In this document: positions 1 through 58,912 of the stretch, one piece after another | How positions within the stretch are numbered: position 1 is the first letter of the stretch | Layout: each line of letters begins with the position of its first letter | Translations under genes and position numbers: made by a program | NCBI GenBank assembly: GCA_963754875.1 | Contig: CAVWHO010000020.1 | Location: 175,374-239,373, forward strand | Direction: 5' to 3' | DNA: 64,000 bases | DNA from: Nitrospirota bacterium | Lineage (GTDB): Bacteria > Nitrospirota > UBA9217 | The notes under the pieces: generated by a model | What the model saw: the letters and a program-made list of their open reading frames with translations, nothing else | What the model was told of the DNA's origin: nothing | Database searches by the model: none

Positions 1-95
1 CAAAACATAATAACCTTTCAAAACTAACGATCGCATCACGCGCCGCCATATGGGCGCGTCGCTGTGGACGCGATTGGTGTACCTTATATGTTCTA

Positions 96-1303: not shown

Positions 1304-1319
1304 TAGCTTATAAATAGAA

Positions 1320-12243: not shown

Positions 12244-12301
12244 AGTGAGCGTCGGGAATCATCAAAGAAATGACGCAAGAAGGCAAAGAGGTGCTTAAAC
12301 C

Positions 12302-28316: not shown

Positions 28317-28400
28317 AGGTACGTTCGGAGTATTACCTTCGGAGTGATGAGTGCCGAGTCTGGAGCGCTGATTAAATTTGCTCCGAACTCTGGACCGCTA

Positions 28401-37947: not shown

Positions 37948-38479
37948 GCGGTCTTCTTGTATGACTCTCCAAAATATGATGCGTTCAAATAACGTCATGA
38001 TACAAACGAACCCAGTTCTGGATAAATTCCATGCTTCCATTTCAGTATCTCCTGGCGTGAACGAATCAGGGGAAAACTGTGACAGAATGCCAAGTGGGGA
38101 TGGGCCTCGACAATAAGCGCAATCCCCGATACCTGCGTCAGGGAAGAGGTCTTGAAAAACATCTCCAAAAGATAGCAGCCCGGGATTCGGATCGCGCGGT
38201 TGGGTTCTTTTACCTGGAACTCTGTACTCTGAACGCTGTACTCTGTACTGCAGTAAGCTCCTACCCCGAAAATACCCCATTTTTCCCCTTTATCTCCTTT
38301 CGAAAATTCATTATACTTTACACAATCTTTCCAGCAGCACGTTCTAGCCTTTTTTACCCTGCATGCAGTATCAATGCAGAGATGATAGCAGCTCATTTCT
38401 GCTCGTAACTGAAAAACCAAGTCTCGCCGTTATTGCGTTAACAACACAACCGACAGCAGCCAAACAGGAGAGATATATC

Positions 38480-41400: not shown

Positions 41401-44279
41401 CTTCTATGCCTATGAGCATACAACCGAAACAAAAAAGGTAACGCAGGTCTGTGAAGGGAAGACTGATTCCAAAGGTCTTCTTATCTGCGAGTCGAAGTCT
41501 CCCGTGTCCGGGAACGTGATCATCCAGGCGCGGGCAACAGATGATGCCGGCAACGAATCAATCAGCCACCGGGACATCTGGATAGCGGACAAGGGCGAGT
41601 GGTGGTTCGATGTGTCCGACAACGACCGCATCGACCTGCTGCCGGAGCAGAGACACTATGAACCGGGCGAGACAGCGCGATTCCAGGTCCGGATGCCATT
41701 CCGCGAGGCAACGGCCTTGGTGACCGTGGAACGAGAGGGAGTCATGGAGACCTTTGTCAGACACCTTTCGGGAAAGATGCCCGTAGTAGAAGTTCCTGTC
41801 AAAGGAAACTATGCACCGAATGTATTCGTTTCCGTACTAGTCGTGCGCGGACGGGTCGGAGACATAAAACCTACGGCATTGGTGGATCTGGGAAGACCTG
41901 CATACAAACTCGGCATCGCCGAGATCAACGTGGGCTGGCGCGCGCATGAGCTCAGGGTTTTCTTAACCCCGGAAAAGCAGGTCTACCGCATTCGCGACAA
42001 AGCAAAGGTCTTCATAAAAGTCCGTCAGAGGGACAGAAATAATCCCTGGCCCCCGAAAAGCACGGAACTGGCAATTGCTGTCGTGGATGAGGGACTTCTG
42101 GAACTCATGCCGAACAAAAGCTGGAAGCTTCTCGATGCCATGATGGGACGCCGGGGCTATGAGGTGCATACGTCCACTGCCCAGATGCAGGTCGTGGGCA
42201 AGCGGCATTACGGGCTCAAGGCATTCCCGCCGGGCGGCGGAGGCGGCAGGACGGTAACGCGCGAAATGTTCGACACGCTGCTTTTATGGAAAGGCAGGGT
42301 CAAGCTGAACGAGAACGGAGAGGCAACTGTCGATATTCCTCTGAACGACGCACTCACCAGTTTCAGGATCGCTGCGGTCGCGAACGCCGAATCAGGACTC
42401 TTCGGCAGCGGCGAAACCTCGATCCGCACGACCCAGGACCTGATGCTCCTTTCCGGTCTGCCGCCGGTCCTCCGTGAAGGGGATAAATATAAAGCAGGGT
42501 TTACGGTCCGGAATGCCTCGGACCACAAGATGGATGTCGACATCACAGCATCGGTAAGCGGCGCATCGATCAAGCCTGAATTGAAAACAGAAAGCCTCGG
42601 CCCCGGCGAGGCTCGGGAGATTTTCTGGGACGCAACAGCGCCGCTCAATATCGACTCGGTCCTCTGGGAAGTTTCTGCGACAGAGAAGAATGGCGGAGCA
42701 GCAGACAGGCTCAAGATCAAGCAGAAGATCGTCGAAGCAGTACAGGCTCGCGTGTTCCAGGCAACTATCACTCAGGTGGACAAGGTCCATACGCTCACAA
42801 TCGAAAAGCCGAAAGACGCGATGCCGGGCAAGGGTGGCGTGAACGTCTCGTTTAGGAAGAAGTTGTCGAACGGCCTTGGCGGTGTAACGTGGTACATGAA
42901 GAACTATCCTTACACGTGCATGGAGCAGAAGACTTCCCGTGCGATTGCTCTCCGGGATGAAGCGCTCTGGAAAGCGGTGATAGCGGAACTACCAGCGCAT
43001 CTCGACAGTGACGGCCTGGTCAAGTACTTCCCGACCTGTCTTGTGGGGAGCGATACCCTTACCGCATATATGCTATCGATTTCAAACGAGGCAGGCTGGG
43101 CAATACCCGACGATCTCCAGAATAAAATGATTGAAGGCCTGCGCGGGTTCATCGAGGGAAAGGTCATCCGCTGGTCTGCGCTTCCCACTGCCGATGTCTC
43201 GATCAGGAAGATGGCGGCGCTTGAGGCCCTTTCCCGCTATAACAAAGCAGAGTCGGGTCTCCTGAGCTCGATCATGCTCGAACCGAACCTGTGGCCGACG
43301 TCAGCGGTGATCGACTGGCTGAATGTGCTCGTGCGCGTGCCGGACATGCCGGACCGCGAAAAGCGCATCAACGAGACTGAGCAGATCATCCGCTCGCGCC
43401 TCAACTTCCAGGGGACCACGATGGGCTTCTCAACGGAGAAGACCGACTACTTCTGGTGGCTCATGGTATCGACAGACGTGAATGCAGTCCGCACCGTGCT
43501 CACCTTCCTCGACAGGGACCAGTGGAAGGACGACATTCCGCGGCTTGTGCGCGGCGCCATCAACAGGCAGTACCACGGCGCGTGGGGCACGACCACTGCA
43601 AATGCCTGGGGCGTTCTGGCCATGGAAAAATTCTCGAGGAAATTCGAGAATGTTCCGGTTACGGGCAAAACATCTGCCAAAATTGGGGACAAAGCAAAAA
43701 GCGTTGACTGGCAGGCTGCCGCAGAAGGAGCGGCATTGATGTTCAACTGGCCGGCCAAAGAGACCGATCTCACGGTAAACCACCAGGGCACGGGCAAGCC
43801 CTGGGCCACGATCCAGAGTATCGCAGCGATCCCGCTTGAAGGAGCCGTTCTCGAGCGGGTATACGATCAAGAAGACAGTGACGCCCGTAGAGCAGAAACA
43901 GCAGGGTGTCTGGTCGCGCGGCGACGTAGCGCGCGTCAAGCTTGAGCTCGATTCCCAGGCGGACATGACCTGGGTAGTGGTGAACGACCCGATTCCTGCG
44001 GGATCGACGATCCTCGGAAGCGGTCTGGGCGGAGATTCAAAAATGCTCACGAGCAATGAACAGAAAGCCGGTTGGGCCTGGCCGGTCTTTACGGAACGCA
44101 CTTTCACGGCATACCGCGCCTATTATGAATATGTCGCAAAAGGCAAGTGGTCACTGGAATACACCGTGCGTTTGAACACGAGCGGCGCCTTCCAACTTCC
44201 CGAGACCCGCGTGGAGGCGCTCTATGCCCCGGAAATGTTCGGGGAGATGCCGAATGCAGGAATGACGATCAATCCTTAA
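38480..44279 (+). CDS. bacterial alpha-2-macroglobulin family protein (~1930 aa) with an apparent +1 frame change near 43836..43845
   Basis: Signal peptide after an AGGAGA RBS. Thioester motif YTCMEQ (CxEQ). The protein continues as ...LSISNEAGW... typical of the A2M domains. The C-terminal domain continues in another frame (ORF 43836..44279, ...YTIKKTVTPVEQ...). Confidence 0.8.
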
Positions 44280-44404
44280 TGATACGATGGATGTGTCTTC
44301 GCTGGTTCAGGCGTGCAGCCCGAACCGGTTGTTAATGTGTGGTTCAATCTTCAAGATTGAACCAGCGAAGAGTCCATAGCAACGCATTGTATGGGTAAAA
44401 GAAC

Positions 44405-46492
44405 ATGAGATACACCTGGACCATAATAGTTTTGTTCCTGCTGGCCGGCCAATCCTTCGGGATGTCCTCGTTTGACGAAGTGAATGCCGCCTATCATTCG
44501 TCCGACGCGGTCCTTCTTGACCGTCACGGCGAGGTGATCCATGAACTGCGCGTTGATCCGAATTCCCGAAAGCTTCAGTGGACGAGGCTTGCTGATATTT
44601 CTCCGGCGCTCGTGAAGGCGGTTATCAGGTCCGAGGACAAGCGGTTCTACCTGCATCACGGCGTTGACTGGACAGCCTTGTCGTCTGCTGCAGTAGGGAG
44701 CATATTCTCGGGCAGGCCGCGTGGCGCGAGCACGATCACGATGCAGCTTGCTTCACTCATTGACGCGAAGGTGAAATCGAGGAGAGGCCGGCGCACCATC
44801 GGTGAGAAGTGGGAACAGATAAAGGCTGCTCAATCGATCGAAACTACCTGGACAAAAGACCAGGTGCTCGAAGCCTATCTGAACCTCGTGAGCTTTCGGG
44901 GAGAACTGCAGGGGATCGCGGCTGCGTCGCGCGGTATTTTCGACAAGGCACCGGCTGGATTGGATGATACTGAGTCGGCGATTCTTGCTGCGTTGATCCG
45001 GTCACCCAATGCTTCTCCTGAAAAAGTCGGAGAACGGGCCGAGCAGCTTGCCGCGTCCCTGGGGAACTCTCTCCCGGCAGGAAAGATCAGACAACTTGCA
45101 ATTGACCGGTTGTCCAAAGCATATTCTGTGCGAAAGAGCATTGACCTTGCGCCGCATGTCGCGAAGATGCTCTTGCGAAAAAGTGTCAGGACTGCAAAAA
45201 CGACGCTTGATGCCTCTATCCAGCGTTTCGCGGGGGAAGCTCTCAGCCAGGCAATCAGAGCCCTTGCTGAACAGAATGTGCAGGACGGCGCCGCCCTGGT
45301 CGTGGACAACAAAACCGGCGACGTTCTCGCCTATGTCGGCAATGTAGGCAGTGGTTCTTCGGCCGCCTATGTTGACGGCATTCAAGCGAGGAGGCAGGCA
45401 GGTTCTACGCTTAAACCGTTTCTCTACGGTCTCGCCATCGAGAAGAAGATTGTTACAGCAGCCTCGCTCATCGAGGATTCTCCGCTGGACTTGCAGACCG
45501 GGCGCGGCGTTTACCGGCCTGAGAACTACGACAAAAACTTTCGCGGCTTTGTTCCTGTCAGGACCGCTCTTGCCTCGTCCCTCAATATCCCGGCAGTAAA
45601 AACGCTGAATCTCGTGGGGGTGAGTGAATTCGCTTCAAAGCTTCGCCAGTTCGGATTCAGCGGGCTTAGGGATTCGGAATACTACGGCCCTTCTCTTGCG
45701 CTCGGAAGTGCTGATATCACGCTCCTTGAACTGGTGAACGCATACAGAACGCTTGCAAACGACGGGGTCTGGAGCAGGCTGCGGATGTCGCCCGGCGATA
45801 GCAGACATCTTCGCAGACGCGCTCTTTCCCCGGAGGCGGCCTTTATTATTTCCTCCATCCTCTCCGACCGCGAGGCAAGAAGCGCGACCTTCAGCCTCGA
45901 AAGCCCGCTCTCCACGCGCTTCTGGACTGCGGTAAAGACCGGTACGAGCAAGGACATGCGGGACAATTGGTGTGTGGGCTTTTCCGACCGCTACACCGTG
46001 GGCGTCTGGGTGGGGAACTTTTCAGGCGCAGCCATGTGGAACGTATCAGGGGTGAGCGGGGCAGCGCCGGTATGGCTCGAGATCATGAATTTTCTCCATC
46101 AGGACTCTCCGAGCCGCGCGCCTGCTGTTCCTGCCGGCGTTACATCACGGCTCGTCACGTTCGCTGATAAGGGATCGTCCGTGCGAAAACAAGAGTGGTT
46201 CATCAAAGGTACGGAACAGGACCGGGTCAGGACCGACGTCGCACTAGTGCAACCGAAGATCATCTATCCCGCACCGGATATGGTGATTGCTCTTGATCCG
46301 GACATCCCGCATGATGTGCAGAAAATCTTTTTCGAAGCATCATCAGATTCAACCATGCGATTCGTTCTGGACGACCGCCTCATCGGGTCAGCGCCTCTCG
46401 CATCGTGGCGGCCCGTACGAGGCATGCATAGAATTTCGCTTACAGGCGGGAATGGCGCTGTTATTGACCGGGTTACTTTTGAGGTGCGATGA
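44405..46492 (+). CDS. pbpC: penicillin-binding protein 1C (transglycosylase + transpeptidase)
   Basis: Glycosyltransferase-51 motifs (RSEDKRFYLHHGVD). Transpeptidase STLKP at SxxK. Confidence 0.85.
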   Translation: MRYTWTIIVLFLLAGQSFGMSSFDEVNAAYHSSDAVLLDRHGEVIHELRVDPNSRKLQWTRLADISPALVKAVIRSEDKRFYLHHGVDWTALSSAAVGSIFSGRPRGASTITMQLASLIDAKVKSRRGRRTIGEKWEQIKAAQSIETTWTKDQVLEAYLNLVSFRGELQGIAAASRGIFDKAPAGLDDTESAILAALIRSPNASPEKVGERAEQLAASLGNSLPAGKIRQLAIDRLSKAYSVRKSIDLAPHVAKMLLRKSVRTAKTTLDASIQRFAGEALSQAIRALAEQNVQDGAALVVDNKTGDVLAYVGNVGSGSSAAYVDGIQARRQAGSTLKPFLYGLAIEKKIVTAASLIEDSPLDLQTGRGVYRPENYDKNFRGFVPVRTALASSLNIPAVKTLNLVGVSEFASKLRQFGFSGLRDSEYYGPSLALGSADITLLELVNAYRTLANDGVWSRLRMSPGDSRHLRRRALSPEAAFIISSILSDREARSATFSLESPLSTRFWTAVKTGTSKDMRDNWCVGFSDRYTVGVWVGNFSGAAMWNVSGVSGAAPVWLEIMNFLHQDSPSRAPAVPAGVTSRLVTFADKGSSVRKQEWFIKGTEQDRVRTDVALVQPKIIYPAPDMVIALDPDIPHDVQKIFFEASSDSTMRFVLDDRLIGSAPLASWRPVRGMHRISLTGGNGAVIDRVTFEVR

Positions 46493-51889: not shown

Positions 51890-53260
51890 CTGAACCAGCG
51901 TTTTGTTCCATAATTAAGTTGAGTGATCTACCCCACGCCTGAAGGCGGGGGCTTCTCAGGTCAACGAAGGGCTTTAGTACGCCGATTCTCACTGAGCGTT
52001 ACTTTCGGGCGATCCGCCCGTAGTTAAATTTGTCCGAAAAGGAGAATGTTTTGAGCAGCATTGAAATCACGGTCAACGATTTCTCTGCAACCTTGACAAG
52101 TCCACTCTCGATCTTTGAGTGTAAGCCCGTCGTTGATCCAGCCGCACGTTGCATGCCGCTTAGACGATGGGAAAAACCTGTCGATTTGACCGAACATGGT
52201 TCCACTCCATTCGGATTTGTACGCAACCTGACGGATGAATTCAGACCAGCCAGCATCGCAAACGCTTTTTGCAATGCAGTGGTTCGCCGTCATGCCCTTC
52301 ACATTCAAGTCCTCGGCAAAGATAGCTTGGTTCTCGCTTACCAGCCGGGAACTCAATTTGTGAAGGAAATCTTTTCTTTGATTCGCAATTTTTTCATGAA
52401 GCAGCGCGACCTTGTGACGCGCTTTGTTCCGGTTCGCGCTGCCCTTTACCTTGCGGGAAAGACGGCACTGAAAGAACTTCAAGCGATCTTCGGACTTGCG
52501 GAGAAACTTTGGGGACTCAACCCGTTCACCATTGGAGGTTACGAGAAACGATTTGAGCCCCAGGTCGATGCCGATCTGATTACCAGACTTTTTCGGCTTT
52601 ATTTTCTTTTCGACTTCACAAAGAACGGAGGCAAAATACTTTCCGGTCGTTGTCTTCGAGATCGTAATGCTCTTCAATGCGCCTTCAATCTTGCGGTGAA
52701 GAACGGCCTTGATCGGAGCGAACTTCGGAATACTGATAGTCCCAGAGTCAGTATCGACGGAAAAATGTTGAGGCACCAGAAACGATTGTCTGTCATGCTT
52801 GCTCTTGAACTTCGGGAACTCCGATCGCTTGTTAAAAAAGTTGTTGTATGCAACATCAAGACGACGCAGGGACTGTTGAAGCGCCTGAGAATTTACAGCG
52901 TTCAGCCACACAAATTCAGGGCTCTTTTTGAGATCAGTCAGCATCTTCGCCGTGTCATTGTACGTCAATCCCTGTTTCTTCTTGCCCTTATTCGTAGCGT
53001 AGTAATCAATGCGCTCACGCAGAAATCGGTTGTAGACGAAACGGCAGGACCCGAAATGATGAGCGAGAAATTCGGACTGCTTCGCTGTCGGGTTAAGCCG
53101 AAAACTGTAAGCTTTATTGATGAGCATGATTTACAATATATCATGGTTTAATGTAAAAGGCAACTAAATTCTTAGCCCGCTTTGCGGGATGCGGCTTATA
53201 TCCCCATAGCTAAAGCAAGGGGTCTTACGCCGCGAGGTGATAAATAAGTATGAGATAGGC
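51890..53260 (-). mobile_element. IS605-family (IS1341-type, tnpB-only) element; boundaries approximate
   Basis: A TnpB gene with hairpins near both its 3' end (ccccacgcc-tgaa-ggcgggggc, cgggcg-atc-cgcccg) and its 5' flank (cccgc-tttg-cggg). Confidence 0.5.
52024..53127 (-). CDS. tnpB: TnpB (IS605 OrfB, RuvC-like RNA-guided nuclease family)
   Basis: MLINKAYSFRLNPT N-terminus; RuvC motifs IGIDLG, AIFAEDLN, DRDFNAAQNI; zinc finger CGWIND...CQGC. Confidence 0.85.
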   Translation of the reverse strand: MLINKAYSFRLNPTAKQSEFLAHHFGSCRFVYNRFLRERIDYYATNKGKKKQGLTYNDTAKMLTDLKKSPEFVWLNAVNSQALQQSLRRLDVAYNNFFNKRSEFPKFKSKHDRQSFLVPQHFSVDTDSGTISIPKFAPIKAVLHRKIEGALKSITISKTTTGKYFASVLCEVEKKIKPKKSGNQIGIDLGLKSFLVTSNGERVESPKFLRKSEDRLKFFQCRLSRKVKGSANRNKARHKVALLHEKIANQRKDFLHKLSSRLVSENQAIFAEDLNVKGMTANHCIAKSVCDAGWSEFIRQVAYKSEWSGTMFGQIDRFFPSSKRHATCGWINDGLTLKDREWTCQGCREIVDRDFNAAQNILLFGQI

Positions 53261-53846
53261 CAATCGTACTTCGAGCCGTTTAACCCCGCCCGTCACACGT
53301 CACGTATATCCAGATCACTGAGGGAAGCCCCCGAAGCGAGGCGTAGTTGTGGTTCCGCCTAACCTGTGCTTAACTATCCAGTGCGGCGGCCCCATGACAT
53401 GGAGTCGCTTATACCGCGGCCACTGGTGACAGTTCTGCCGCCAGCAGTTGCTGGATTTCCAAAGAAGCATGGCCGAATTCGAGTAGAAGAACATTCGGAT
53501 CATCGCGGCTTCGTCTGATCCCTTGAATAAGCTGCCAAGACTGTCGAACATTACGGTTTGACCTTTGCCGTGGGGTACGGCCTCGTCCCTAGAGCAGTGT
53601 CATCAATCACCGGGGCTTTCTGCAATCCCGCGAAAAACTTCCTCCATGCAACTGGATTTATCATCAGCCCGGGAGGAAAGATTGAGAACGCAGTATACAG
53701 CAGCAGGTCTATTGGAAGGCTCAGGCCCAAGTCTGCCTCGCTTTTATCAATACTTAGCACACCTCGATGAACAAAGGACGAATTTTCCCCCAAGGACCGC
53801 TAATGTATTCTCGAAGGAAAGTTTGTACCCACCGCAGAAGAATCTA

Positions 53847-55053
53847 GTGTAGTGTCTCACAAACGACTGGTGTTATCAGCCTTTTTCTTGCGAGAGCGAG
53901 GTAATGTGCAGCCTGGCTGAATTTTCTCCAATGTTTGTTTGCAGCGTCCAAGTTTCTTAACGATCGATTCAACGGTTGCGGTCCATACAAACGGTTTTGG
54001 GTCTTTGTTCCAAGCAGCCAAATACTCTTCGATAGCGCTCTTGAGCGCGTCCACGCTGACAAAGACTCCGCGACGTATTCGTTTTCCCGTCAGTTCTCCG
54101 AACCAACGCTCAACAAGGTTCAACCAGCTTGAACTGGTCGGGACGAAGTGGGAAACAAAACGTGGATGCCGTGTTAACCATCTCTGGACTTTGGGGTGCT
54201 TATGCGTGCCATAGTTATCCATCACTATGTGCAGCTGCTTTTCGACCGGGAATTCAGCATCCAGTTGCTTTAAAAACTTGAGAAATTCCTGATGGCGATG
54301 CCGAGCATAACATTGACCGATCACTTTACCTTGCGCCAATTCGAGCGCAGCAAAAAGGGTTGTCGTGCCGTTACGCTTATAGTCATGAGTCATGGTACCG
54401 CAACGCCCTTTTTTTAAAGGAAGTCCCGGTTGTGTACGATCTAACGCTTGAATCTGGCTTTTCTCATCCACACACAGCACTAATGCTTTTTCTGGAGGAT
54501 TGAGATAGAGCCCGACGACATCGGTAAGCTTTTCCAAGAACCGTGGATCGCGTGACAACTTAAATCCCGTGGTTCTGTGCGGCTGAATATGATGACTTTG
54601 CCAGATCCTATTGATCGTTGCTTTGCTCACGCCCTGCTGTTCAGCCATCGTTCGGCAACTCCAATGGGTGGCTCCAGCAGGCTTCGTTTGCAGTGTGGCA
54701 TTAATTATTTTATTAATTTTGGTTGCCGTTAACTCTGGTTTACGTCCGCGACCTGCCGCAACTTCCCAAAGGCAGTCCGGACCTTCACTACAGAACCGCT
54801 GCCTCCATAATGCAGCCGTTTTATAATTGATTTGCATTTGCTTTGCGATGGCCTTGTCTTGTTGGCCATTCGCAGCGGCTAGAATAATTCGACACCGTTG
54901 AGCAACTTGTTGCGGGGTGCGATGAGCCCGCACCCATTGCTCTAGTTCTTGTCGATCAGACTCAGTAAGGTTTATGGTTAAAGCGTGTCGTGCCATGAAC
55001 AGCATCCTATCACAAATCATGACATAACACCAGTTAATTGAGAGACACTACAC
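53847..55053 (-). mobile_element. IS630-family insertion sequence, intact copy 3 (identical to copy 2, TA-flanked)
   Basis: Same ends and TA duplication. The encoded 387-aa protein is identical to copy 2. Confidence 0.9.
53857..55020 (-). CDS. IS630-family DDE transposase (387 aa)
   Basis: Identical translation to the ORF at 28411..29574. Confidence 0.9.
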   Translation of the reverse strand: MICDRMLFMARHALTINLTESDRQELEQWVRAHRTPQQVAQRCRIILAAANGQQDKAIAKQMQINYKTAALWRQRFCSEGPDCLWEVAAGRGRKPELTATKINKIINATLQTKPAGATHWSCRTMAEQQGVSKATINRIWQSHHIQPHRTTGFKLSRDPRFLEKLTDVVGLYLNPPEKALVLCVDEKSQIQALDRTQPGLPLKKGRCGTMTHDYKRNGTTTLFAALELAQGKVIGQCYARHRHQEFLKFLKQLDAEFPVEKQLHIVMDNYGTHKHPKVQRWLTRHPRFVSHFVPTSSSWLNLVERWFGELTGKRIRRGVFVSVDALKSAIEEYLAAWNKDPKPFVWTATVESIVKKLGRCKQTLEKIQPGCTLPRSRKKKADNTSRL

Positions 55054-55090
55054 TAGGAAATTACACAGCGACCAGAGCAAGAAATTGTGC

Positions 55091-55137
55091 TTGACATTTA
55101 TGTAAAAGTATAATAATATTTGCATACTTTTATGTAA
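55091..55137 (+). promoter_or_regulatory. promoter (-35 TTGACA at 55091) overlapping a 14-bp-arm imperfect inverted repeat (ttatgtaaaagtat-N12-atacttttatgtaa); candidate ArsR-family operator
   Basis: Hexamer and inverted repeat read 40-80 nt upstream of the arsR ATG. Confidence 0.45.
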
Positions 55138-55172
55138 ATTGTTTTTCGTTTCGATATAAGGAGAAAAACAAA

Positions 55173-55514
55173 ATGCTCCCCATGGACAAGAGAATCGATC
55201 TCCTCAAAGTCATCGCCCACCCCATGCGCATCAAGATTCTCGAAGAGCTTACTCAAGGTGTGAAATGCGTAAGCGATTTCGAAGACTCCCTCGACATCAG
55301 CCAGCCGAATGTGTCACAGCACTTGACCCTCCTCCGAACGAACGGAATCATCGATTTCTTCGTTGACGGAAGGCTCAAGTGCTATTTCCTCAAAGAACCT
55401 CTCATCCCTGATCTCCTGGGACTTCTCAAAAAAAAGTATAAAGAAGACATACCCGCACCGGCCTGTTGTCCGGTGACGAAAAAAGGAACTTACCCTGGCG
55501 AAAGGAGAAGATAA
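55173..55514 (+). CDS. ArsR/SmtB-family transcriptional regulator with a C-terminal Cys pair
   Basis: HTH region CVSDFEDSLDISQPNVSQHLTLL. C-terminal PAPACCP. AAGGAGAAAAA RBS. Confidence 0.8.
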   Translation: MLPMDKRIDLLKVIAHPMRIKILEELTQGVKCVSDFEDSLDISQPNVSQHLTLLRTNGIIDFFVDGRLKCYFLKEPLIPDLLGLLKKKYKEDIPAPACCPVTKKGTYPGERRR

Positions 55515-55520
55515 GTCTGC

Positions 55521-55790
55521 ATGAAAAAGCACACAATTACTCTCTACGTGAACGACCCCATGGGCAAGCGCTGATTGTCCAATATGGATGCCGCTCGTGT
55601 GGCGGAGAAAGAGTTCGGCGCAGAAGTCGTCGTAATCAAGAAGACCTCGAAGGAGTATCAGGGGCAGCGAGACCCGCTTCCCTGTCCTTCCGTTGTCTTG
55701 AACGGGCGGCTCATCGCAAAGAAAGATACCATTACGTACCAAAGCTTGAAGACATCGATCATGTGCGACTGTGAAATAACACTCGTATAA
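55521..55790 (+). CDS. candidate thioredoxin-fold (redox-active-disulfide-protein-2-like) selenoprotein with an in-frame TGA at 55572..55574
   Basis: The ATG at 55521 has AAAGGAGAAG 9 nt upstream. Its 17 codons run in frame into the ORF 55575..55790, which has no RBS of its own. The translation MKKHTITLYVNDPMGKR-U-LSNMDAA...PCPSVVLNGRLIAKKD aligns with small Trx-like proteins, with U at the second position of the CxxC motif. Confidence 0.45.
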
Positions 55791-55801
55791 AGGAGGGTGC
55801 C

Positions 55802-56158
55802 ATGCCAAAAACCGTAACTCTATATTTATCAACATCGCCGTATTCCTACGAGAACACGCTGACGAGCGCCCGCATTGCCGAATCCGCTTTGAACAAGGGC
55901 CATACCGTCAACCTCATCGCATCGGCTGACGGCATCTACTGCTTTCTGACAAAGCAGAAGGCGAAAGGGATCCTGAATGCCGAAGAGGAATTCACCAGGC
56001 TCATACAAAAAGGCTTGAAGGTGTATCTCTGAGGCGGGTGCCTCAACTTTCGCCGTGCGGCGAAAGACGACTATCTTGCAGGTACAGAAGTAGGCTCGCT
56101 TAAAGGCCTGTTTGCAACCATGGGCGAGACGGACGTGTGGATTAATCTAGGTGCATAG
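55802..56158 (+). CDS. dsrE: DsrE/TusD-like sulfurtransferase with an in-frame TGA (probable selenocysteine) at 56030..56032
   Basis: AAGGAGGG RBS. The ORF through TGA and 42 further in-frame codons gives ...KVYL-U-GGCLNFRRAAKDDYL...GETDVWINLGA, which aligns with TusD ...NICVAAALRRGV...LTCDRVVQF with U at the active-site Cys78 position. A hairpin cuuucgcc-GUGC-ggcgaaag begins 14 nt after the UGA. The next gene starts 10 nt after the extended stop and has its own RBS. Confidence 0.7.
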
Positions 56159-56167
56159 GAGGAGCAT

Positions 56168-56521
56168 ATGTCAAATGTTGCGATGATCTTAAAGAGATCT
56201 CCCTACGGCGATATCAACGCGGCCGAGGCTGTACGCCATGCCCTTGGCGCTGTGTCCGGTGAACTTAGCGTTGATCTCATCCTGATCGACGGCGGGGTGC
56301 TGCTTGCAAAGAAGGGGCAGGACGACAAGGGTACGGGTTTCACAAATCTCGAAGGCACTCTCAAGGACTGCGTCGAAATGGGAGTCGCCGTCTATGCCGA
56401 CACTGCTTCGCTCAAAACGCAGGGTGTCCCGTCAAACGAGGTCGTCGAAAACGTCAAACTGGTCGGTGCCAAAGAGATCGCGGGACTGTTGAAGGAAGCA
56501 AAATCGACCATGATATTCTAG
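56168..56521 (+). CDS. dsrF: DsrF/TusC-like protein
   Basis: The DsrE/DsrF-family fold pattern (MILKRSPYGD...LILIDGGVLLAKKGQ). AGGAGG RBS. Confidence 0.7.
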   Translation: MSNVAMILKRSPYGDINAAEAVRHALGAVSGELSVDLILIDGGVLLAKKGQDDKGTGFTNLEGTLKDCVEMGVAVYADTASLKTQGVPSNEVVENVKLVGAKEIAGLLKEAKSTMIF

Positions 56522-56532
56522 AGGAGGCTGCT

Positions 56533-56814
56533 ATGTTCGTGATGATAAAGAGCGCGCCGGATACGACTGATGGAGCACTCGGATTGACCCTTGCGAAAGA
56601 AAGCGGGGCCGATCTTATCCTGCTGCAGAACGGCGTGTATTTTGCGAAAAAAGAACGGCTCGGCGATTTTGCCAGGACAGTGTATGTCCTGGATGACGAC
56701 AAGAGGCTCCGGGGTCTCAAGGATTCCGAAATGGATGGGCGTGCAAAAAACATCGACTACGACAAGCTGACCGACATCATTACGGGCGGCGACAAGGTGG
56801 TCGGGATGTTTTAA
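56533..56814 (+). CDS. dsrH: DsrH/TusB-like protein
   Basis: MFVMIKSAPD...LILLQNGVY pattern of TusB/DsrH. GAGGAGG RBS. Confidence 0.65.
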   Translation: MFVMIKSAPDTTDGALGLTLAKESGADLILLQNGVYFAKKERLGDFARTVYVLDDDKRLRGLKDSEMDGRAKNIDYDKLTDIITGGDKVVGMF

Positions 56815-56839
56815 ATCTTGTTGTACAGGGGAGGTTATT

Positions 56840-58030
56840 ATGTCAAGGATCGTTGTGGTAGGGGGATCGTTCGGGGGATTGACAGCGGCCTTCGAGCTTA
56901 AACGACTGCTTGGGAAGAAAGCCGACGTGACCGTGGTGAGCGACGATGACCGGTTTGTGTTCCTGCCGTCGCTGCCGTGGCTCATCATGGGGTGGAGAAA
57001 GCCGGAAGATATTACCCTTAAGGTGAGCGAGATCCTGAAGCCCAAGGGGATCGAGTTCGTTCATGACGCGGCAAAGCAGATCGACGCCGATTCATCGAAG
57101 GTAACAACCTCAAAAGGAAAAGAGCTGCCCTATGACTTTCTCGTAATATCTACGGGACCGTATCTTTCCTTTGATGAGATTCCCGGGCTGGGACCTGATA
57201 AGGGCCATACCGACTGTACGTTTACACTTGATCATGCATTAAGAGCCAGAGAATCGTGGAAAAAGATCCTGGAGAACCCCGGTCCGATAGTCGTCGGTTC
57301 GTCGCAGATGGTGAGCTGTTTCGGCCCGTCCTACGAGCTGGCGTTTGAGATGGACACCGAGCTTCGCCGTCGAAAAATGCGCCACAAAGTACCCATCCTC
57401 TATCTCACGTCTGAACCCTATCTCGGCCACATGGGGGTCGGTGGTCTCGGCAAATCAAAGCGCTTCATGGAAGACGAATTTGCCGAGCGGGACATCAAAC
57501 CCGTCATCAGCCAAGCCATTGAAGAGGTAACGCCCGGAGAAATCAAACTCAAGGACGGCACAAAGCTACCCTTCAAACTTGCCATGATCGCGCCGCCGTT
57601 CAAAGGCGTGCCTGCCGTCATGCCGTTGGGAAATCCCCGCGGGTTCATCCCGGTTGACAAGAACTATCGTCATACGAAATTTAAAAATATTTTTGCCATC
57701 GGTGTTACCATGGCCATCGCACCGCCGGAGGCGACGCCGGTGCCGACGGGCGTTCCCAAGACCGGATTTATGACGGTGAAGATGGCGAAGATTGCCGCGG
57801 CAACTATCGCTGCCGGCATCACCGGGAAGACCCCGCCTCCTCCGTCGGAAATCGGCGTGGTTTGTCTCATGGACATGGGAAACACAGCCGCATACATGAA
57901 GGCCTATCCCGTGCTTCCGCCGCGCCAGAGTTCCTATACGAGGAAGACCATCTGGGCGAAGTGGATGAAGGTCCGGTTCGAGAAATACTTCCTCTGGAAG
58001 ATGAAGAGGGGGCTCAGCAATCTGCCATGA
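56840..58030 (+). CDS. sqr: sulfide:quinone oxidoreductase-like FAD-dependent pyridine nucleotide-disulfide oxidoreductase
   Basis: VVVGGSFGGLTAA Rossmann motif. The length and the Cys positions (VSCFGP, VVCLMDMG) fit SQR/FCSD-type flavoproteins. GGGGAGG RBS. Confidence 0.65.
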   Translation: MSRIVVVGGSFGGLTAAFELKRLLGKKADVTVVSDDDRFVFLPSLPWLIMGWRKPEDITLKVSEILKPKGIEFVHDAAKQIDADSSKVTTSKGKELPYDFLVISTGPYLSFDEIPGLGPDKGHTDCTFTLDHALRARESWKKILENPGPIVVGSSQMVSCFGPSYELAFEMDTELRRRKMRHKVPILYLTSEPYLGHMGVGGLGKSKRFMEDEFAERDIKPVISQAIEEVTPGEIKLKDGTKLPFKLAMIAPPFKGVPAVMPLGNPRGFIPVDKNYRHTKFKNIFAIGVTMAIAPPEATPVPTGVPKTGFMTVKMAKIAAATIAAGITGKTPPPPSEIGVVCLMDMGNTAAYMKAYPVLPPRQSSYTRKTIWAKWMKVRFEKYFLWKMKRGLSNLP

Positions 58031-58173
58031 AGAAAGAGATATTGAAGCTGCACGCTGATTTTTGCAAGATATTTTCCAATCCCACGAGGCTTGAGATACT
58101 CTGCCTGCTTAGAGAAGGCGAACTGACTGCCGGCGAGATCACTGAGAAGCTCGGCGTGTCACATGGCTATTAA
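58027..58173 (+). pseudogene. second arsR-family gene truncated after the first HTH helix by inserted DNA
   Basis: MKKEILKLHADFCKIFSNPTRLEILCLLREGELTAGEITEKLGVS then HGY-stop. Homologous to the 55173 protein up to the recognition helix. Confidence 0.6.
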
Positions 58174-58180
58174 ACTTACA

Positions 58181-58798
58181 TCATAGGTGCAGGGCCAGGC
58201 GGTTATGTCGCCGCGATACGTGCAGCGCAGGCTCTTTCGTTCTTTGAGCTTCGGTGTAGATTTCATGGCTGAAAAGGTCAATGACATGCAGCGCATAGAA
58301 CCTACGGTCATCTTTGATGTAGCGCGGCCCCACCAAGCCCATCTGGTGGATATTGTTGCACCCCAAGGCCTCGGTGAAGTAAGGGTATTCGACTCCTTTG
58401 GACGCATAGGCTGTTTTTTTAACGAGCCCTTTGCGTTTCAGCACTCGGTTTATCGTGCTGTCCGAAGGAAATGGTAGCCCCTGCTTCTTGAGCTCCCATT
58501 TGATGGCGGAAACGCCGATCTGGGCATAAGGCGCATCCACCAGTTGCTGCCTGGTCAAAAGGATGCGCTTTTTCGCTCCCTCGTCGATCTCCGAGGGCCT
58601 TGTTTTGGGAGCCCGAGATTGTTCTTTGAACCAGCCTGCTGCTCCGGTTCGATATCGTATCAGCCATTTGAAGAACCACTTCTTGGATCGGTTCAGGCTG
58701 GTATAAACATCTTTGGGTGATTCGCCTCTTTGGATGTGTCGTTTGATAGGGGTCTGTCTGAGTGCGCTCTCCTTTAGTAATCTGAATAAGGAGAGCAT
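58181..58798 (-). pseudogene. IS481-like transposase N-terminal fragment (HTH plus the start of an rve integrase core)
   Basis: Transposase-type HTH. GPRYIKDDRRFYALHVIDLFSHEIY begins the DDE core, but the ORF ends after 205 aa. Confidence 0.55.
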
Positions 58799-58840
58799 GA
58801 ATTGGGCCGAGAAGATGCTCTAGCCTAATAAACACGATTT

Positions 58841-58879
58841 CGGGTAACCGATGTCTTGACCAGCCGGGTAACCGATGTC
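58841..58879. repeat. two copies of the 15-mer cgggtaaccgatgtc separated by 9 bp
   Basis: Exact direct repeat read beside the IS481-like fragment. Confidence 0.7.
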
Positions 58880-58912
58880 CTGAAACTTGTCAGCTATACC
58901 ATAATCCCTGCA

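What the first reader, a model, noticed from the sequence alone, without database searches (positions are those of the whole stretch)
55054..58912. IS-bracketed sulfur-trafficking island (arsR, Trx-like, dsrE(Sec)FH, sqr) with a disrupted second arsR
Between IS630 copy 3 and a truncated IS481-like transposase lies a compact same-strand cluster, every gene with a strong RBS. It comprises an ArsR/SmtB regulator with a C-terminal Cys pair (SqrR/BigR-like), a small thioredoxin-fold ORF containing an in-frame TGA, DsrE with an in-frame TGA, DsrF, DsrH and an SQR-type flavoprotein. A second arsR follows, cut after its first HTH helix by the IS fragment. The predicted promoter overlaps an inverted repeat suited to ArsR binding. 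The layout suggests a horizontally acquired persulfide/sulfide-handling module whose carrier protein uses selenium at the catalytic position.
Basis: partly seen in the sequence, partly recalled or inferred. Interest (0 to 1): 0.75.

Follow-up and report, generated by a model that had tools for sequence, protein, structure and literature searches.

The report
Selenocysteine DsrEFH–SQR sulfur operon
This is a real gene cluster, conserved in a group of sulfate-reducing Nitrospirota, that pairs a sulfide-oxidising enzyme with a sulfur-carrier complex whose reactive residue is selenocysteine, so gene callers cut that carrier gene short at a false stop and surveys report it missing.

Summary
Window 55173-58173 (+) carries arsR, a small thioredoxin-fold ORF with an in-frame TGA, dsrE with an in-frame TGA, dsrF, dsrH, a sulfide:quinone reductase (SQR) gene and a truncated second arsR. 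An IS630 copy lies upstream and an IS481-like fragment downstream.

Both TGAs are very probably selenocysteine codons:
- **DsrE:** TGA in 85 of 85 orthologous loci, with the downstream frame conserved. It aligns with Cys78 of DsrE and TusD. A downstream hairpin is frozen at synonymous sites.
- **Small ORF:** TGA in 27 of 27 copies. Three homologues carry Cys at that position, one of them near-identical. Its hairpin shows compensatory changes. It is a sub-threshold relative of the known selenoprotein TsoC.

The cluster is not a foreign island. It is a lineage-wide Nitrospirota (Thermodesulfovibrionales-type) operon, with GC content equal to the window's. The IS elements are later arrivals, and one removed the operon's downstream part.

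The regulator does not have the BigR/SqrR sensing cysteines.

The most likely function is SQR-generated sulfane sulfur passed to a selenium-based DsrEFH relay under a thiol-sensing ArsR repressor. A selenium or metalloid role is not excluded, because selD and an ArsM-like selenoprotein gene sit beside related units.

Both selenoprotein families are already known. The Sec-DsrE-F-H plus SQR operon and its systematic mis-annotation appear undescribed.

The parts
53844..55056 (-). IS630 copy 3 (transposase ORF 53857-55020). It sits 35 nt upstream of the operon's -35 box and is not part of the operon.
   Evidence: NCBIfam IS630 251 bits against a cutoff of 100. It is 99.9% identical to 28398-29610 and 90% identical to 93-1309.
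55091..55139 (+). Promoter-like TTGACA-17-TAATAT (55091-55119), overlapped by the inverted repeat ATTTATGTAAAAGTAT-N12-ATACTTTTATGTAAAT (55096-55139). Probable ArsR operator.
   Evidence: A TTGAC box followed about 22 nt later by TTTGCAT was found upstream of 42 of 76 arsR1 orthologues. In more distant loci the site is a clear palindrome, ATATGCAAAT...ATTTGCATAT.
55173..55514 (+). arsR1, an ArsR/SmtB repressor of 113 aa with conserved Cys32, Cys70 and Cys98-Cys99.
   Evidence: Pfam HTH_5 and NCBIfam HTH_metalloreg 68 bits against a cutoff of 55. The four cysteines are conserved in 73-75 of 77 orthologues. The BigR/SqrR sensing positions are not conserved.
55521..55790 (+). TsoC-like thioredoxin-fold selenoprotein gene of 89 codons. 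Motif NDPMGKR-U, Sec codon at 55572-55574. An invariant Cys in a CPS motif lies before strand 3.
   Evidence: NCBIfam TsoC 33.8 bits, below the cutoff of 45. TGA in 27 of 27 copies. Cys homologues P0135, P0164 and P0173. Model of P0135 has pLDDT 88 and matches thioredoxins. The Cys is invariant in 36 sequences.
55591..55605 (+). Candidate bacterial SECIS hairpin of the TsoC-like gene: CCGCU-CGUGU-GGCGG, with the stem starting 16 nt after the UGA.
   Evidence: 100% of cells paired in 21 sequences. One pair shows CG/UG/AU/UA at synonymous sites. 1 of 500 shuffles reached the observed covariation score.
55802..56158 (+). dsrE-like selenoprotein gene of 118 codons. Motif YL-U-GGC-LNFRR, Sec codon at 56030-56032.
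   Evidence: Pfam DsrE 53.7 bits. The top 120 database homologues all cover only the first 64% of the query, i.e. end at this TGA; most are 76 aa. TGA in 85 of 85 loci with 39-41 conserved downstream codons. U aligns with Cys in Cys-type homologues and with Cys78 of A. vinosum DsrE and E. coli TusD.
56047..56066 (+). Candidate bacterial SECIS hairpin of dsrE: CUUUCGCC-GUGC-GGCGAAAG, starting 14 nt after the UGA (position 18 counting the U of the UGA as 1).
   Evidence: Fold z-score -2.46. Four-fold degenerate sites inside the core are frozen: CGC 85/85, CGU 81/85, GCG 84/85. The neighbouring Gly codons vary freely. Core pairs are at least 98.7% paired and the loop is GUGC in 73 of 79 sequences.
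56168..56521 (+). dsrF/tusC-like subunit, 117 aa.
   Evidence: Pfam DsrE 60.9 bits. NCBIfam TusC 40.6 bits, below the cutoff of 94. A. vinosum DsrF 2HY5_B E=4.5e-8. Adjacent to dsrE in 80 of 80 loci.
56533..56814 (+). dsrH/tusB-like subunit, 93 aa, with no cysteine.
   Evidence: Pfam DsrH 33.9 bits. NCBIfam TusB 35.6 bits, below the cutoff of 49. TM0979 E=2.6e-5. Present in 77 of 78 loci.
56840..58030 (+). Sulfide:quinone oxidoreductase, 396 aa, close to the type I enzymes of Aquifex and Acidithiobacillus.
   Evidence: 3HYV E=1.4e-97 and 3T2Z-type E about 1e-94. VSCFGP and VVCLMDMG align with the Aquifex redox cysteines. Present downstream in 60 of 65 loci.
58027..58173 (+). 5' fragment of a second arsR. 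About 45 native codons, then 3 foreign codons and a stop.
   Evidence: Pfam HTH_5 positions 1-28 of 47 only. The orthologue in L004 is 96 aa. DNA homology to L007 and L009 ends at 58160-58161.
58181..58912 (-). Truncated IS481-like element. The ORF 58181-58798 encodes only the N-terminal part of the transposase. It marks a deletion that removed the rest of arsR2 and the downstream DrsE_2 and RND-transporter genes.
   Evidence: NCBIfam IS481 63.9 bits, below the cutoff of 224, covering model positions 6-169 of 284. DrsE_2 and MMPL are absent from the window but follow SQR in 29 of 59 and 46 of 59 loci respectively.

Best explanation
The stretch is the 5' two-thirds of an operon conserved in Thermodesulfovibrionales-type Nitrospirota. 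The ancestral gene order is arsR, [tsoC-like, tauE], dsrE(Sec), dsrF, dsrH, sqr, [arsR2, drsE2], RND transporter.

**Shown**
- dsrE and the tsoC-like gene are selenoprotein genes. Each UGA is read as selenocysteine with the help of a hairpin that starts 14-16 nt downstream.
- The Sec of DsrE occupies the position of the catalytic, persulfide-carrying Cys78 of DsrE and TusD, in a U-G-G-C motif.
- DsrE is always accompanied by DsrF-like and DsrH-like subunits and nearly always by a bona fide SQR.
- The TsoC-like protein has a thioredoxin fold. Its Sec lies in the first turn of helix 1, and it has an invariant Cys next to a Pro before strand 3.

**Inferred mechanism**
1. When reactive sulfur rises, the cysteines of the ArsR repressor (Cys32 and Cys98/Cys99) are modified and the repressor leaves the dyad that overlaps the promoter.
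2. SQR oxidises sulfide to enzyme-bound sulfane sulfur and passes the electrons to quinone.
3. The highly nucleophilic selenolate of DsrE, in a DsrE2F2H2-type complex, takes over the sulfane sulfur as a Se-S-S(-) adduct. The neighbouring Cys of the UGGC motif can resolve it.
4. The TsoC-like Sec/Cys protein recycles or relays the adduct.
5. In intact operons, further carriers and exporters (DrsE_2, TauE, an HAE3-type RND pump) dispose of the product.

**In this genome**
An IS481-like element has deleted everything after the first 45 codons of arsR2, and an IS630 copy has landed just upstream of the intact promoter.
For: **Sec decoding of dsrE**
- The top 120 database homologues cover only the first 64% of the query and end at the TGA; most are 76 aa.
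- TGA in 85 of 85 loci, followed by 39-41 conserved codons.
- Cys-type full-length homologues carry C at that column.
- Frozen synonymous sites in the hairpin.

**Catalytic position**
- A family profile aligns the column with Cys78 of 2HY5_A and 2D1P_A, and with the first Cys of the YchN CxxC motif.

**TsoC-like gene**
-.

**SQR identity and cysteines**
-.

**Synteny**
- DsrF 80/80, DsrH 77/78, SQR 60/65, ArsR 57/63.

**Accessory genes in relatives**
- Rhodanese, c-type cytochromes, TauE and DsrE2-like genes all point to sulfur.
- A Cys-type sister operon also combines an ArsR-rhodanese fusion, DsrEFH and an SQR/FCSD-like flavoprotein.

**Regulation**
- Conserved promoter and operator.
- Conserved cysteines in the repressor.

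**Sec machinery in the clade**
- A Sec-type SelD is encoded within the same locus in relatives, including the one with 98% DsrE identity.
Against: - No biochemical or expression data exist. The direction of sulfur flow and the partner of DsrE(Sec) are inferred only from homology and gene order.
- DsrH has no cysteine, whereas A. vinosum DsrH Cys20 is needed for sulfur oxidation (PMC13047784).
- DsrF and DsrH score below the NCBIfam TusC and TusB cutoffs.
- No dsrC, tusE, tusA or dsrAB was seen among the genes identified in the window or in the roughly 16-kb loci. This was not searched with dedicated queries.
- The regulator lacks the BigR/SqrR persulfide-sensing cysteine pair. Its Cys32 plus CC arrangement resembles the three-cysteine As(III) sites of some ArsR proteins (my recollection of the literature).
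- ArsR1 paralogues also head units with selD-tauE and with tsoC, a methyltransferase and an ArsM-like selenoprotein. That pattern fits a selenium or metalloid theme as well as a sulfur theme.
- Sec machinery could not be checked in this genome.
- The dsrE hairpin shows conservation but no compensatory double changes.
Confidence: 0.6

Rival explanations
1. It is a selenium or metalloid handling and response regulon rather than a sulfur one. ArsR1 senses selenide, selenite or As(III). DsrE(Sec)FH and the TsoC-like protein carry selenium, as Se-Se or Se-S adducts, to or from SelD. SQR acts on or protects against selenide. TauE moves a selenium oxyanion. Alternatively the repressor simply restricts expression of selenoprotein genes to times when selenium is available.
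For: - A Sec-type selD (motif CAG-U, TIGR00476 322 bits) lies inside or next to the operon in at least three different arrangements: between arsR1 and dsrE, after dsrH, and after sqr. It is present in 6 of 48 loci with enough flank.
- Chance adjacency would be well under 1%. This is my estimate and is not corrected for shared ancestry.
- ArsR1 paralogues 78-85% identical to the window's regulator head a canonical TsoC (68 bits), a methyltransferase and an ArsM-family selenoprotein.
- The best, though weak, NCBIfam hit of DsrE(Sec) is the CGxC region of the selenium-metabolism protein YedF (15.7 bits, E=0.01). YedF's DsrE-like domain with a CGXC motif has been linked to SelD (PMC5322559).
- The regulator's Cys32 plus Cys98/99 resemble three-cysteine metalloid sites.
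- The Cys-type sister operon carries two methyltransferases.
Against: - The near-constant partner is an SQR with 1e-97 similarity to enzymes characterised on sulfide. It is present in 60 of 65 loci, against selD in 6 of 48.
- Other accessory genes, rhodanese and DsrE2-like, are sulfur-type.
- Selenoprotein genes often cluster with sel genes for reasons unrelated to their chemistry.
- The YedF hit is not significant by the family cutoff of 110.
Confidence: 0.2
2. It is the missing DsrEFH of the dissimilatory Dsr pathway. DsrE(Sec)FH loads DsrC with SQR-derived sulfur, so that reductive-type DsrAB can run in reverse. These nominal sulfate reducers would then be able to oxidise or disproportionate sulfur for energy.
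For: - DsrEFH transfers sulfur to DsrC in A. vinosum. A second DsrEFH type in sulfate reducers has been shown to be a sulfur transferase and proposed to allow reversal of the pathway (PMC13293266).
- One survey reports that most Thermodesulfovibrionia with reductive dsrAB 'possess dsrFH, but no dsrE' (PMC11033732). That is what a UGA-truncated dsrE would produce.
- DsrF here is detectably homologous to A. vinosum DsrF.
- SQR and cytochrome genes lie in the operon.
Against: - DsrH lacks the Cys20 equivalent (sequence).
- No dsr, apr, qmo, tusA or yeeE genes were seen in more than 80 neighbourhoods (and gene calls).
- Control by an ArsR-type repressor, together with an efflux pump, looks like a stress or detoxification unit rather than a core catabolic one.
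- The E subunit is closer to YchN (53 bits) than to DsrE (40.6) or TusD (30.6).
Confidence: 0.15
3. The TGAs are genuine stops. dsrE and the small ORF would be decaying pseudogenes or short peptides in an IS-ridden region.
For: - Gene callers annotate a truncated DsrE (76 aa in most records) and a 68-aa C-terminal fragment of the small ORF.
- The region is flanked by IS elements and its 3' end is deleted.
Against: - TGA, never TAA or TAG, is conserved in 85 of 85 and 27 of 27 copies across 70-98% and about 50-90% protein identity respectively.
- The downstream frames evolve under amino-acid constraint.
- Cys-for-Sec homologues exist, one of them in the same 90% cluster.
- Both TGAs are followed by conserved hairpins.
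Confidence: 0.02

Closest known systems
DsrE-like selenoprotein family (PF02635, UxxC motif; Zhang & Gladyshev, PMC1088965; one member listed for Desulfovibrio vulgaris in PMC1794560; listed in the 2026 review PMC13188914)
   Same: A DsrE-fold protein with Sec in a UxxC motif, Cys-containing homologues and a downstream stem-loop.
   Different: - Here the selenoprotein is the E subunit of a three-gene E-F-H set fused into an operon with SQR.
- It is found in more than 80 Nitrospirota species.
- No NCBIfam model covers it, and public annotations truncate it at the TGA, to 76 aa in most records.
- I could not compare it directly with the published members.
Allochromatium vinosum DsrEFH (2HY5) and E. 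coli TusBCD (2D1P)
   Same: Three adjacent genes for E/D, F/C and H/B-type subunits. The reactive residue sits at the Cys78 position. DsrF is homologous at E=4.5e-8.
   Different: - Sec replaces Cys, and a second Cys follows three residues later (UGGC against CVAAA).
- DsrH has no cysteine.
- Scores fall below the TusC and TusB equivalog cutoffs.
- No dsrC, tusE or tusA was seen nearby.
- By profile score the E subunit is nearer to YchN.
DsrEFH type II of the YTD cluster (PMC13293266, PMC13047784)
   Same: A DsrEFH-like complex in sulfate reducers and disproportionators, including Nitrospirota, with a DsrH-like subunit that lacks Cys20.
   Different: - Type II is syntenic with yeeE and tusA, whereas this operon is syntenic with arsR and sqr.
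- Type II keeps its active Cys (conserved in 99.3% of sequences) and its F and H subunits do not align with canonical ones.
- Here F and H hit the Pfam and PDB families directly.
Tso 'three selenoprotein operon' (TsoR, TsoA, TsoB, TsoC; Haft & Tolstoy 2025, cited in PMC13188914; NCBIfam NF045707, NF045708)
   Same: An ArsR-type regulator next to a small NxPxGxxU thioredoxin-like selenoprotein and a sulfurtransferase-type selenoprotein.
   Different: - The window's protein scores 33.8 against a cutoff of 45. Its motif is NDP rather than NEP, and it has an extra invariant Cys.
- The regulator scores 30.6 against a cutoff of 115.
- No TsoA or TsoB was detected. The sulfurtransferase here is DsrE-type, not rhodanese/DsbD-type.
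- A true TsoC (68 bits) lies elsewhere in related loci.
- The original paper was not available to me.
Staphylococcus aureus cst operon and the SqrR/BigR regulons (sulfide and persulfide stress responses; from my own knowledge of the literature)
   Same: A thiol-based repressor controls SQR, a TauE-family permease and sulfurtransferases that include a DsrE/TusD-like domain.
   Different: - The repressor here is ArsR-type, but its cysteines sit at other positions than in BigR and SqrR.
- There is no persulfide dioxygenase.
- The carriers here are selenoproteins.
Type I SQR of Aquifex aeolicus (3HYV) and Acidithiobacillus ferrooxidans (3T2Z)
   Same: Full-length alignment at E=1e-97 and about 1e-94. 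The redox cysteines in VSCFGP and xxCxxDxG are conserved, and the amphipathic FEKYFLWKMK helix is present.
   Different: - It is 396 aa against 430-437, so the last ~30 C-terminal residues are missing.
- The Cys near position 126 aligns two residues off the FAD-linking Cys124.
- It is embedded in an operon with sulfur carriers.

Membership tests
DsrE-like selenoprotein (PF02635, UxxC) | DsrE/DsrF-like domain | tested here: met
   Pfam PF02635 53.7 bits against a cutoff of 22.7, covering residues 5-114 across the TGA.
DsrE-like selenoprotein (PF02635, UxxC) | In-frame UGA aligned with Cys in homologues (Sec/Cys pair), in a UxxC motif | tested here: met
   U-G-G-C motif. Cys is found at that column in P0204, P0206, P0209, P0213, P0219, P0221, P0225 and P0227. 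TGA in 85 of 85 loci.
DsrE-like selenoprotein (PF02635, UxxC) | Bacterial SECIS stem-loop shortly after the UGA, with G/U in the apical loop | tested here: met
   An 8-bp hairpin starts 14 nt after the UGA, with loop GUGC. Synonymous sites are frozen and core pairs are at least 98.7% paired. No compensatory double changes were seen. There was no Rfam hit.
DsrE-like selenoprotein (PF02635, UxxC) | Sec-decoding machinery (selA, selB, selC, selD) in the same genome | not testable with these tools
   None was found in the 64-kb window. The source contig was not retrievable. Relatives carry a Sec-type selD in the same locus.
DsrEFH / TusBCD sulfur-relay complex | Three adjacent genes for E/D, F/C and H/B subunits | tested here: met
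   Pfam DsrE, DsrE and DsrH for the three ORFs. Adjacency in 80 of 80 and 77 of 78 loci.
DsrEFH / TusBCD sulfur-relay complex | Reactive residue at the Cys78 position of the E/D subunit | tested here: met
   A profile alignment places the U column on Cys78 of 2HY5_A and 2D1P_A. The residue here is Sec, not Cys.
DsrEFH / TusBCD sulfur-relay complex | Conserved Cys20 in DsrH | tested here: not met
   The 93-aa DsrH-like protein contains no cysteine. The requirement is as stated in PMC13047784.
DsrEFH / TusBCD sulfur-relay complex | Scores above the NCBIfam equivalog cutoffs for TusD, TusC and TusB | tested here: not met
   TusD 15.4 against 89, TusC 40.6 against 94, TusB 35.6 against 49.
DsrEFH / TusBCD sulfur-relay complex | Genomic or functional link to DsrC/TusE, TusA or dsrAB | tested here: inconclusive
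   None was seen among the called genes and tblastn markers in 84 neighbourhoods of up to 16 kb. No dedicated DsrC or TusA query was run, and whole genomes were not examined.
DsrEFH / TusBCD sulfur-relay complex | E2F2H2 heterohexamer | not testable with these tools
   Only single-chain structure prediction was available.
TsoC (NF045708, NEPxGxxU selenoprotein) | HMM score at or above the curated cutoff of 45 bits | tested here: not met
   33.8 bits. Cys homologues score 33.7 and 39.6. A paralogue in L001 scores 68.4.
TsoC (NF045708, NEPxGxxU selenoprotein) | N-E-P-x-G-x-x-U motif with Sec | tested here: inconclusive
   The motif is N-D-P-M-G-K-R-U, with D in place of E. TGA in 27 of 27 copies.
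TsoC (NF045708, NEPxGxxU selenoprotein) | Operon context with TsoA, TsoB and TsoR | tested here: not met
   No match to TsoA or TsoB. The regulator scores 30.6 against 115 for TsoR. The neighbours are arsR1 and dsrE.
Thioredoxin fold | beta-alpha-beta-(alpha)-beta-beta-alpha topology, with the reactive residue at the N-terminus of helix 1 | tested here: met
   AlphaFold model of the Cys homologue P0135: pLDDT 88.3, pTM 0.79, strands 5-10, 35-40, 57-60 and 63-66, helices 16-32 and 73-84. Foldseek hits to thioredoxins, MtH895 and a SelW-related protein have probability 0.97-1.00.
Sulfide:quinone oxidoreductase (type I-like) | Full-length homology to characterised SQRs, with the two redox cysteines | tested here: met
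   3HYV E=1.4e-97 over residues 3-391. VSCFGP and VVCLMDMG align with the Aquifex Cys156 and Cys347 motifs.
BigR / SqrR persulfide-sensing ArsR repressors | Sensing cysteine pair (BigR Cys42/Cys108, SqrR Cys41/Cys107) | tested here: not met
   In alignments to 3PQJ and 6O8K the position of the first sensing Cys is Glu in this protein. Its cysteines are at 32, 70, 98 and 99. The BigR model scores 50.2 against a cutoff of 155.
ArsR/SmtB family | Winged-helix HTH_5 domain above threshold | tested here: met
   PF01022 42.9 bits against 22. NF033788 68.1 bits against 55.

The most novel reading that the evidence does not exclude
ArsR1 is a selenium- or metalloid-responsive repressor. Its regulon would comprise selD(Sec)-tauE, tsoC-methyltransferase-arsM(Sec), and tsoC-like-dsrE(Sec)FH-sqr. 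Together these would form a dedicated selenium economy: DsrE(Sec)FH and the TsoC-like protein act as Se-Se or Se-S carriers that feed or buffer SelD, and SQR handles selenide as well as sulfide. That would be a selenium-trafficking pathway built from sulfur-relay parts.
Probability: 0.12. Interest if true: 0.8.

Novelty: new variant of a known kind. Interest (0 to 1): 0.55.

Why it matters
**Marker-gene surveys**
- dsrEFH is widely used as a marker that separates sulfur oxidisers from sulfate reducers.
- One survey notes that most Thermodesulfovibrionia have 'dsrFH, but no dsrE' (PMC11033732).
- A 2026 census of DsrEFH found the active Cys in 99.3% of sequences and does not mention Sec (PMC13293266).
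- If the E subunit of a whole Nitrospirota clade is a selenoprotein cut short at the UGA by gene callers, these organisms do have a complete DsrEFH-like set, coupled to SQR. Marker-based inferences about their sulfur metabolism would need revisiting.

**Annotation**
- No NCBIfam model covers this protein, so the truncation is systematic.

**Biochemistry**
- A selenolate at the persulfide-carrying position of a sulfur relay is a natural experiment on why Sec replaces Cys.
- The repeated adjacency of selD raises a testable link between sulfur-relay proteins and selenium supply.

Tried and rejected
- **Rfam.** No match at gathering thresholds over the whole window. The permissive scan of 55500-56200 gave no SECIS family. 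Rfam's bacterial SECIS coverage is limited, so this carries no weight against Sec.
- **tRNA-Sec.** No tRNA genes at all in the window.
- **Source genome.** Retrieval failed. The proteins exist in the collection on a 465-kb contig, but exact look-ups returned nothing. So selA, selB and selC could not be searched.
- **Haft & Tolstoy 2025 (Tso operon).** The paper is not held. I relied on the 2026 review and on the NCBIfam models.
- **Representative search with the U-to-C read-through protein.** The native 76-aa N-terminal part was used instead.
- **Crude scan for other in-frame TGA genes in the window.** It gave 190 candidates dominated by noise, and nothing convincing beyond the two genes.
- **Horizontal transfer.** No GC deviation, and the operon is vertically widespread, so I rejected it. 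Flanks do differ between genomes, so local mobility is not excluded.
- **BigR/SqrR-type sensing.** Rejected on the cysteine positions.
- **Canonical TsoC membership.** Rejected on score and context.
- **Compensatory covariation in the dsrE hairpin.** None was found because the sequence is too conserved. The argument rests on frozen synonymous sites instead.

Full report
**1. What is in the sequence**

Window 55173-58173 (+) holds seven closely packed same-strand genes.

| Gene | Coordinates | Notes |
|---|---|---|
| arsR | 55173-55514 | 113 aa |
| Small ORF | 55521-55790 | in-frame TGA at 55572 |
| dsrE | 55802-56158 | in-frame TGA at 56030 |
| dsrF | 56168-56521 | 117 aa |
| dsrH | 56533-56814 | 93 aa |
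| Flavoprotein (SQR) | 56840-58030 | 396 aa |
| arsR fragment | 58027-58173 | about 45 native codons |

- Pfam and NCBIfam confirm the family assignments.
- Upstream lies one of three IS630 copies, 53844-55056. It is 99.9% identical to the copy at 28398-29610.
- Further upstream is a TnpB gene, 52024-53127.
- Downstream, on the minus strand, an IS481-like ORF covers only the first 60% of the transposase model.
- A promoter-like TTGACA-17-TAATAT (55091-55119) overlaps a 16-nt-arm inverted repeat.

**2. The dsrE TGA is a selenocysteine codon**

- A search of 5.8 billion proteins with the read-through sequence returned more than 400 hits. The best 120 (82-99% identical) all cover only the first 64% of the query, so they stop at the same TGA; most are 76 aa.
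- In 84 fetched loci plus the window the codon is TGA in 85 of 85. It is never TAA, TAG or a sense codon. It is followed by 39-41 codons that evolve like protein, for example AGTEVGSLKGLFATMGETDVWINLGA against EGAEIGSLKGLFRTMDESDIWLNIGA.
- More distant full-length homologues carry Cys at the aligned column, in the motif (L/A)C(G)xC(L)xxR(G/R). Other distant homologues are again truncated exactly there.
- A profile of the family aligns this column with the active-site Cys78 of A. vinosum DsrE (2HY5_A) and E. coli TusD (2D1P_A), and with the first Cys of the YchN CxxC motif.
- Fourteen nucleotides after the UGA lies the hairpin CUUUCGCC-GUGC-GGCGAAAG.
- Four-fold degenerate third positions inside its core are essentially invariant: Arg CGC 85/85, Arg CGU 81/85, Ala GCG 84/85. 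The two Gly codons just upstream use all four bases.
- The three central pairs are at least 98.7% paired, and the loop is GUGC in 73 of 79 distinct sequences.
- This is selection on the RNA, as expected for a bacterial SECIS. There are no compensatory double changes.

**3. The small ORF is a TsoC-like thioredoxin-fold selenoprotein**

- NCBIfam's only hit is NF045708, 'NEPxGxxU motif selenoprotein TsoC', at 33.8 bits against a cutoff of 45. The local motif is NDPMGKR-U.
- All 27 copies found in related loci have TGA there, followed by a conserved frame.
- Three homologues have Cys instead: P0135, P0164 and P0173. P0173 belongs to the same 90%-identity cluster as the window's protein.
- A 5-bp hairpin starting 16 nt after the UGA is paired in 100% of 21 sequences. 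One pair switches among C-G, U-G, A-U and U-A at synonymous sites. One of 500 shuffles reached the observed covariation score.
- An AlphaFold model of P0135 (pLDDT 88, pTM 0.79) has thioredoxin topology, with the Sec/Cys in the first turn of helix 1. Its best structural matches are thioredoxins, MtH895 and a SelW-related protein.
- A Cys in a C-P-S motif before strand 3 is invariant in 36 sequences. It is absent from true TsoC paralogues, which have FPA there. I infer a Sec-Cys redox pair.

**4. The other genes**

- **Flavoprotein.** It is a genuine SQR. It matches Aquifex aeolicus SQR at E=1.4e-97 and Acidithiobacillus ferrooxidans SQR at about 1e-94. The redox-cysteine motifs and the amphipathic membrane helix are conserved.
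- **DsrF.** It matches A. vinosum DsrF at E=4.5e-8.
- **DsrH.** It matches TM0979 at E=2.6e-5.
- **Shortfalls.** Both score below the NCBIfam TusC and TusB cutoffs, and DsrH has no cysteine.
- **ArsR.** Its four cysteines (32, 70, 98, 99) are conserved in 73-75 of 77 orthologues. In alignments with BigR and SqrR structures the first sensing Cys of those proteins corresponds to Glu here. The 'SqrR/BigR-like' label therefore fails on its defining feature. Cys32 occupies the classical ArsR alpha3 position.

**5. Not a foreign island but a lineage operon**

A scan of one genome per GTDB species gave 80 loci, almost all Nitrospirota. They include Thermodesulfovibrionales, Ca. Sulfobium and Dissulfurispiraceae.

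Gene order is arsR1, [tsoC-like, tauE, (cytochrome)], dsrE, dsrF, dsrH, sqr, [arsR2], [drsE2], HAE3/MMPL RND transporter. Counts below use loci with enough flank.

| Neighbour of dsrE | Present / loci assessed |
|---|---|
| DsrF | 80/80 |
| DsrH | 77/78 |
| SQR | 60/65 |
| ArsR1 upstream | 57/63 |
| MMPL | 46/59 |
| DrsE_2 | 29/59 |
| TsoC-like | 17/63 |
| TauE | 13/63 |

- The promoter and operator are conserved too. A TTGAC box followed about 22 nt later by TTTGCAT occurs in 42 of 76 upstream regions, and it is a clear palindrome in distant loci.
- GC of the cluster equals that of the window.
- DNA homology to the nearest relatives (L007, 91-93%) stops at 58160, inside arsR2.
- drsE2 and the transporter gene are absent from the window.

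So the IS481-like element is associated with a deletion of the operon's 3' part. The IS630 copy is a recent insertion 35 nt upstream of an intact promoter.

**6. Function**

The strongest inference is a sulfide and sulfane-sulfur module. SQR makes sulfane sulfur. A DsrEFH-like relay with a selenolate at the persulfide-carrying position accepts it. A thioredoxin-fold Sec/Cys protein and further carriers and exporters process it. A cysteine-rich ArsR repressor controls the set.

Supporting context:
- a rhodanese gene between tsoC-like and dsrE in L035;
- a dihaem cytochrome c gene between dsrH and sqr in L007;
- a DsrE2-like gene downstream;
- a Cys-type sister operon with an ArsR-rhodanese fusion, DsrEFH, two methyltransferases and an SQR/FCSD-like flavoprotein.

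The layout parallels the S. aureus cst operon (my knowledge of the literature).

Two observations keep a selenium or metalloid reading alive:
- **selD adjacency.** A Sec-type selD (MDIKLTELSSCAG-U-AAKF, TIGR00476 322 bits) lies within the locus in at least three different arrangements, often directly behind an arsR1 paralogue and before tauE. It is present in 6 of 48 assessable loci.
- **ArsR1 paralogue unit.** In L001 and L008 another arsR1 paralogue heads a canonical TsoC (68 bits), a methyltransferase and an ArsM-family protein with its own in-frame TGA.

A third reading is that this is the DsrEFH serving the dissimilatory pathway. The literature suggests it. The cysteine-free DsrH, the absence of dsr neighbours and the repressor-plus-pump context argue against it.

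**7. Relation to what is known**

- DsrE-like selenoproteins (UxxC) have been listed since 2005 (PMC1088965, PMC1794560, PMC13188914).
- TsoC has been listed since 2025 (cited in PMC13188914).
- New as far as I can tell: the selenoprotein is the E subunit of a full E-F-H set hard-wired to SQR in a whole Nitrospirota clade. No NCBIfam model recognises it; the best hit is YedF at 15.7 bits. Public records annotate a truncated 'DsrE family protein', 76 aa in most cases.
- This plausibly explains the published remark that most Thermodesulfovibrionia 'possess dsrFH, but no dsrE' (PMC11033732).
- It also explains why a 2026 DsrEFH census (PMC13293266) saw a conserved Cys in 99.3% of sequences and no Sec forms.
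- I could not compare sequences with that study's type II subtype 1, which is mostly Nitrospirota. Overlap with its Cys-type members cannot be excluded.

**8. Verdict**

- Confidence that both genes encode selenoproteins is about 0.95. It is short of certainty only because the Sec machinery of this genome could not be inspected.
- Confidence in the sulfur-relay mechanism is about 0.5-0.6.
- Novelty: a new variant of known kinds.
- Interest is moderate, 0.55. It rests mainly on the annotation and marker-gene consequence and on the unexplained link to selD.

Noticed in passing
L008:13837-14580 (+), with arsR1 paralogue at 11877-12245 and TsoC at about 12240-12497: An arsenite-methyltransferase-family gene has an in-frame TGA (…AEAWSQ-U-IGGTVP…). 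It scores 300 bits on the ArsM part of NCBIfam ArsM selenoprotein models. It lies in a unit made of an arsR1 paralogue, a canonical TsoC(Sec), a methyltransferase and this ArsM(Sec) gene, a few kb from the dsrE-sqr operon.
   Followed up: partly
L003:7180-8239, L005:10790-11826, L057:10870-11919, also L029, L032, L043 and L069: A Sec-type selD (N-terminal …SSCAG-U-AAKF…, truncated by gene callers) lies inside or beside the operon in three different positions. It usually follows an arsR1 paralogue and precedes a TauE-family permease gene.
   Followed up: partly
L090:3610-8523 (GCA_016208315.1): A Cys-type homologue of the DsrE (47% identical, motif LCGTC) sits in an operon with an ArsR-rhodanese fusion, a methyltransferase, DsrE, DsrF, DsrH, a second methyltransferase and an SQR/FCSD-like flavoprotein. 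The ArsR-DsrEFH-flavoprotein link therefore predates the use of Sec.
   Followed up: partly
window 93-1309, 28398-29610, 53844-55056: There are three IS630 copies. Two are 99.9% identical, which points to recent transposition. The third is 90% identical and in the opposite orientation.
   Followed up: yes
window 52024-53127 (-): An IS200/IS605-family TnpB (RNA-guided endonuclease family) ORF of 367 aa scores 403 bits on NF038281, just under its cutoff of 425. It lies between pmbA and the IS630 copy. No tnpA was seen next to it.
   Followed up: no
window 38363-46492 (+): A bacterial alpha-2-macroglobulin gene (1860 aa) is followed by a PBP1C-type transglycosylase/transpeptidase gene (695 aa). 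This is the known A2M-PbpC pairing.
   Followed up: no
window 18958-20988 (-): A Lon-type protease (AAA plus Lon_C) carries an N-terminal response-regulator receiver domain.
   Followed up: no
upstream of arsR1 orthologues, e.g. L073:7640-7700, L034, L047, L036: A near-perfect palindrome, ATATGCAAAT-N6-ATTTGCATAT, lies between the -35 and -10 boxes. The window's own operator is a diverged version whose best dyad is shifted.
   Followed up: partly
L085:2004-3096 and L087:260-912: More distant DsrE homologues (47% and 33% identical) are also truncated exactly before the active-site position. One is followed by two further DsrE-family genes and the other overlaps an arsR gene. Sec-DsrE may therefore extend beyond the Nitrospirota clade.
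   Followed up: no
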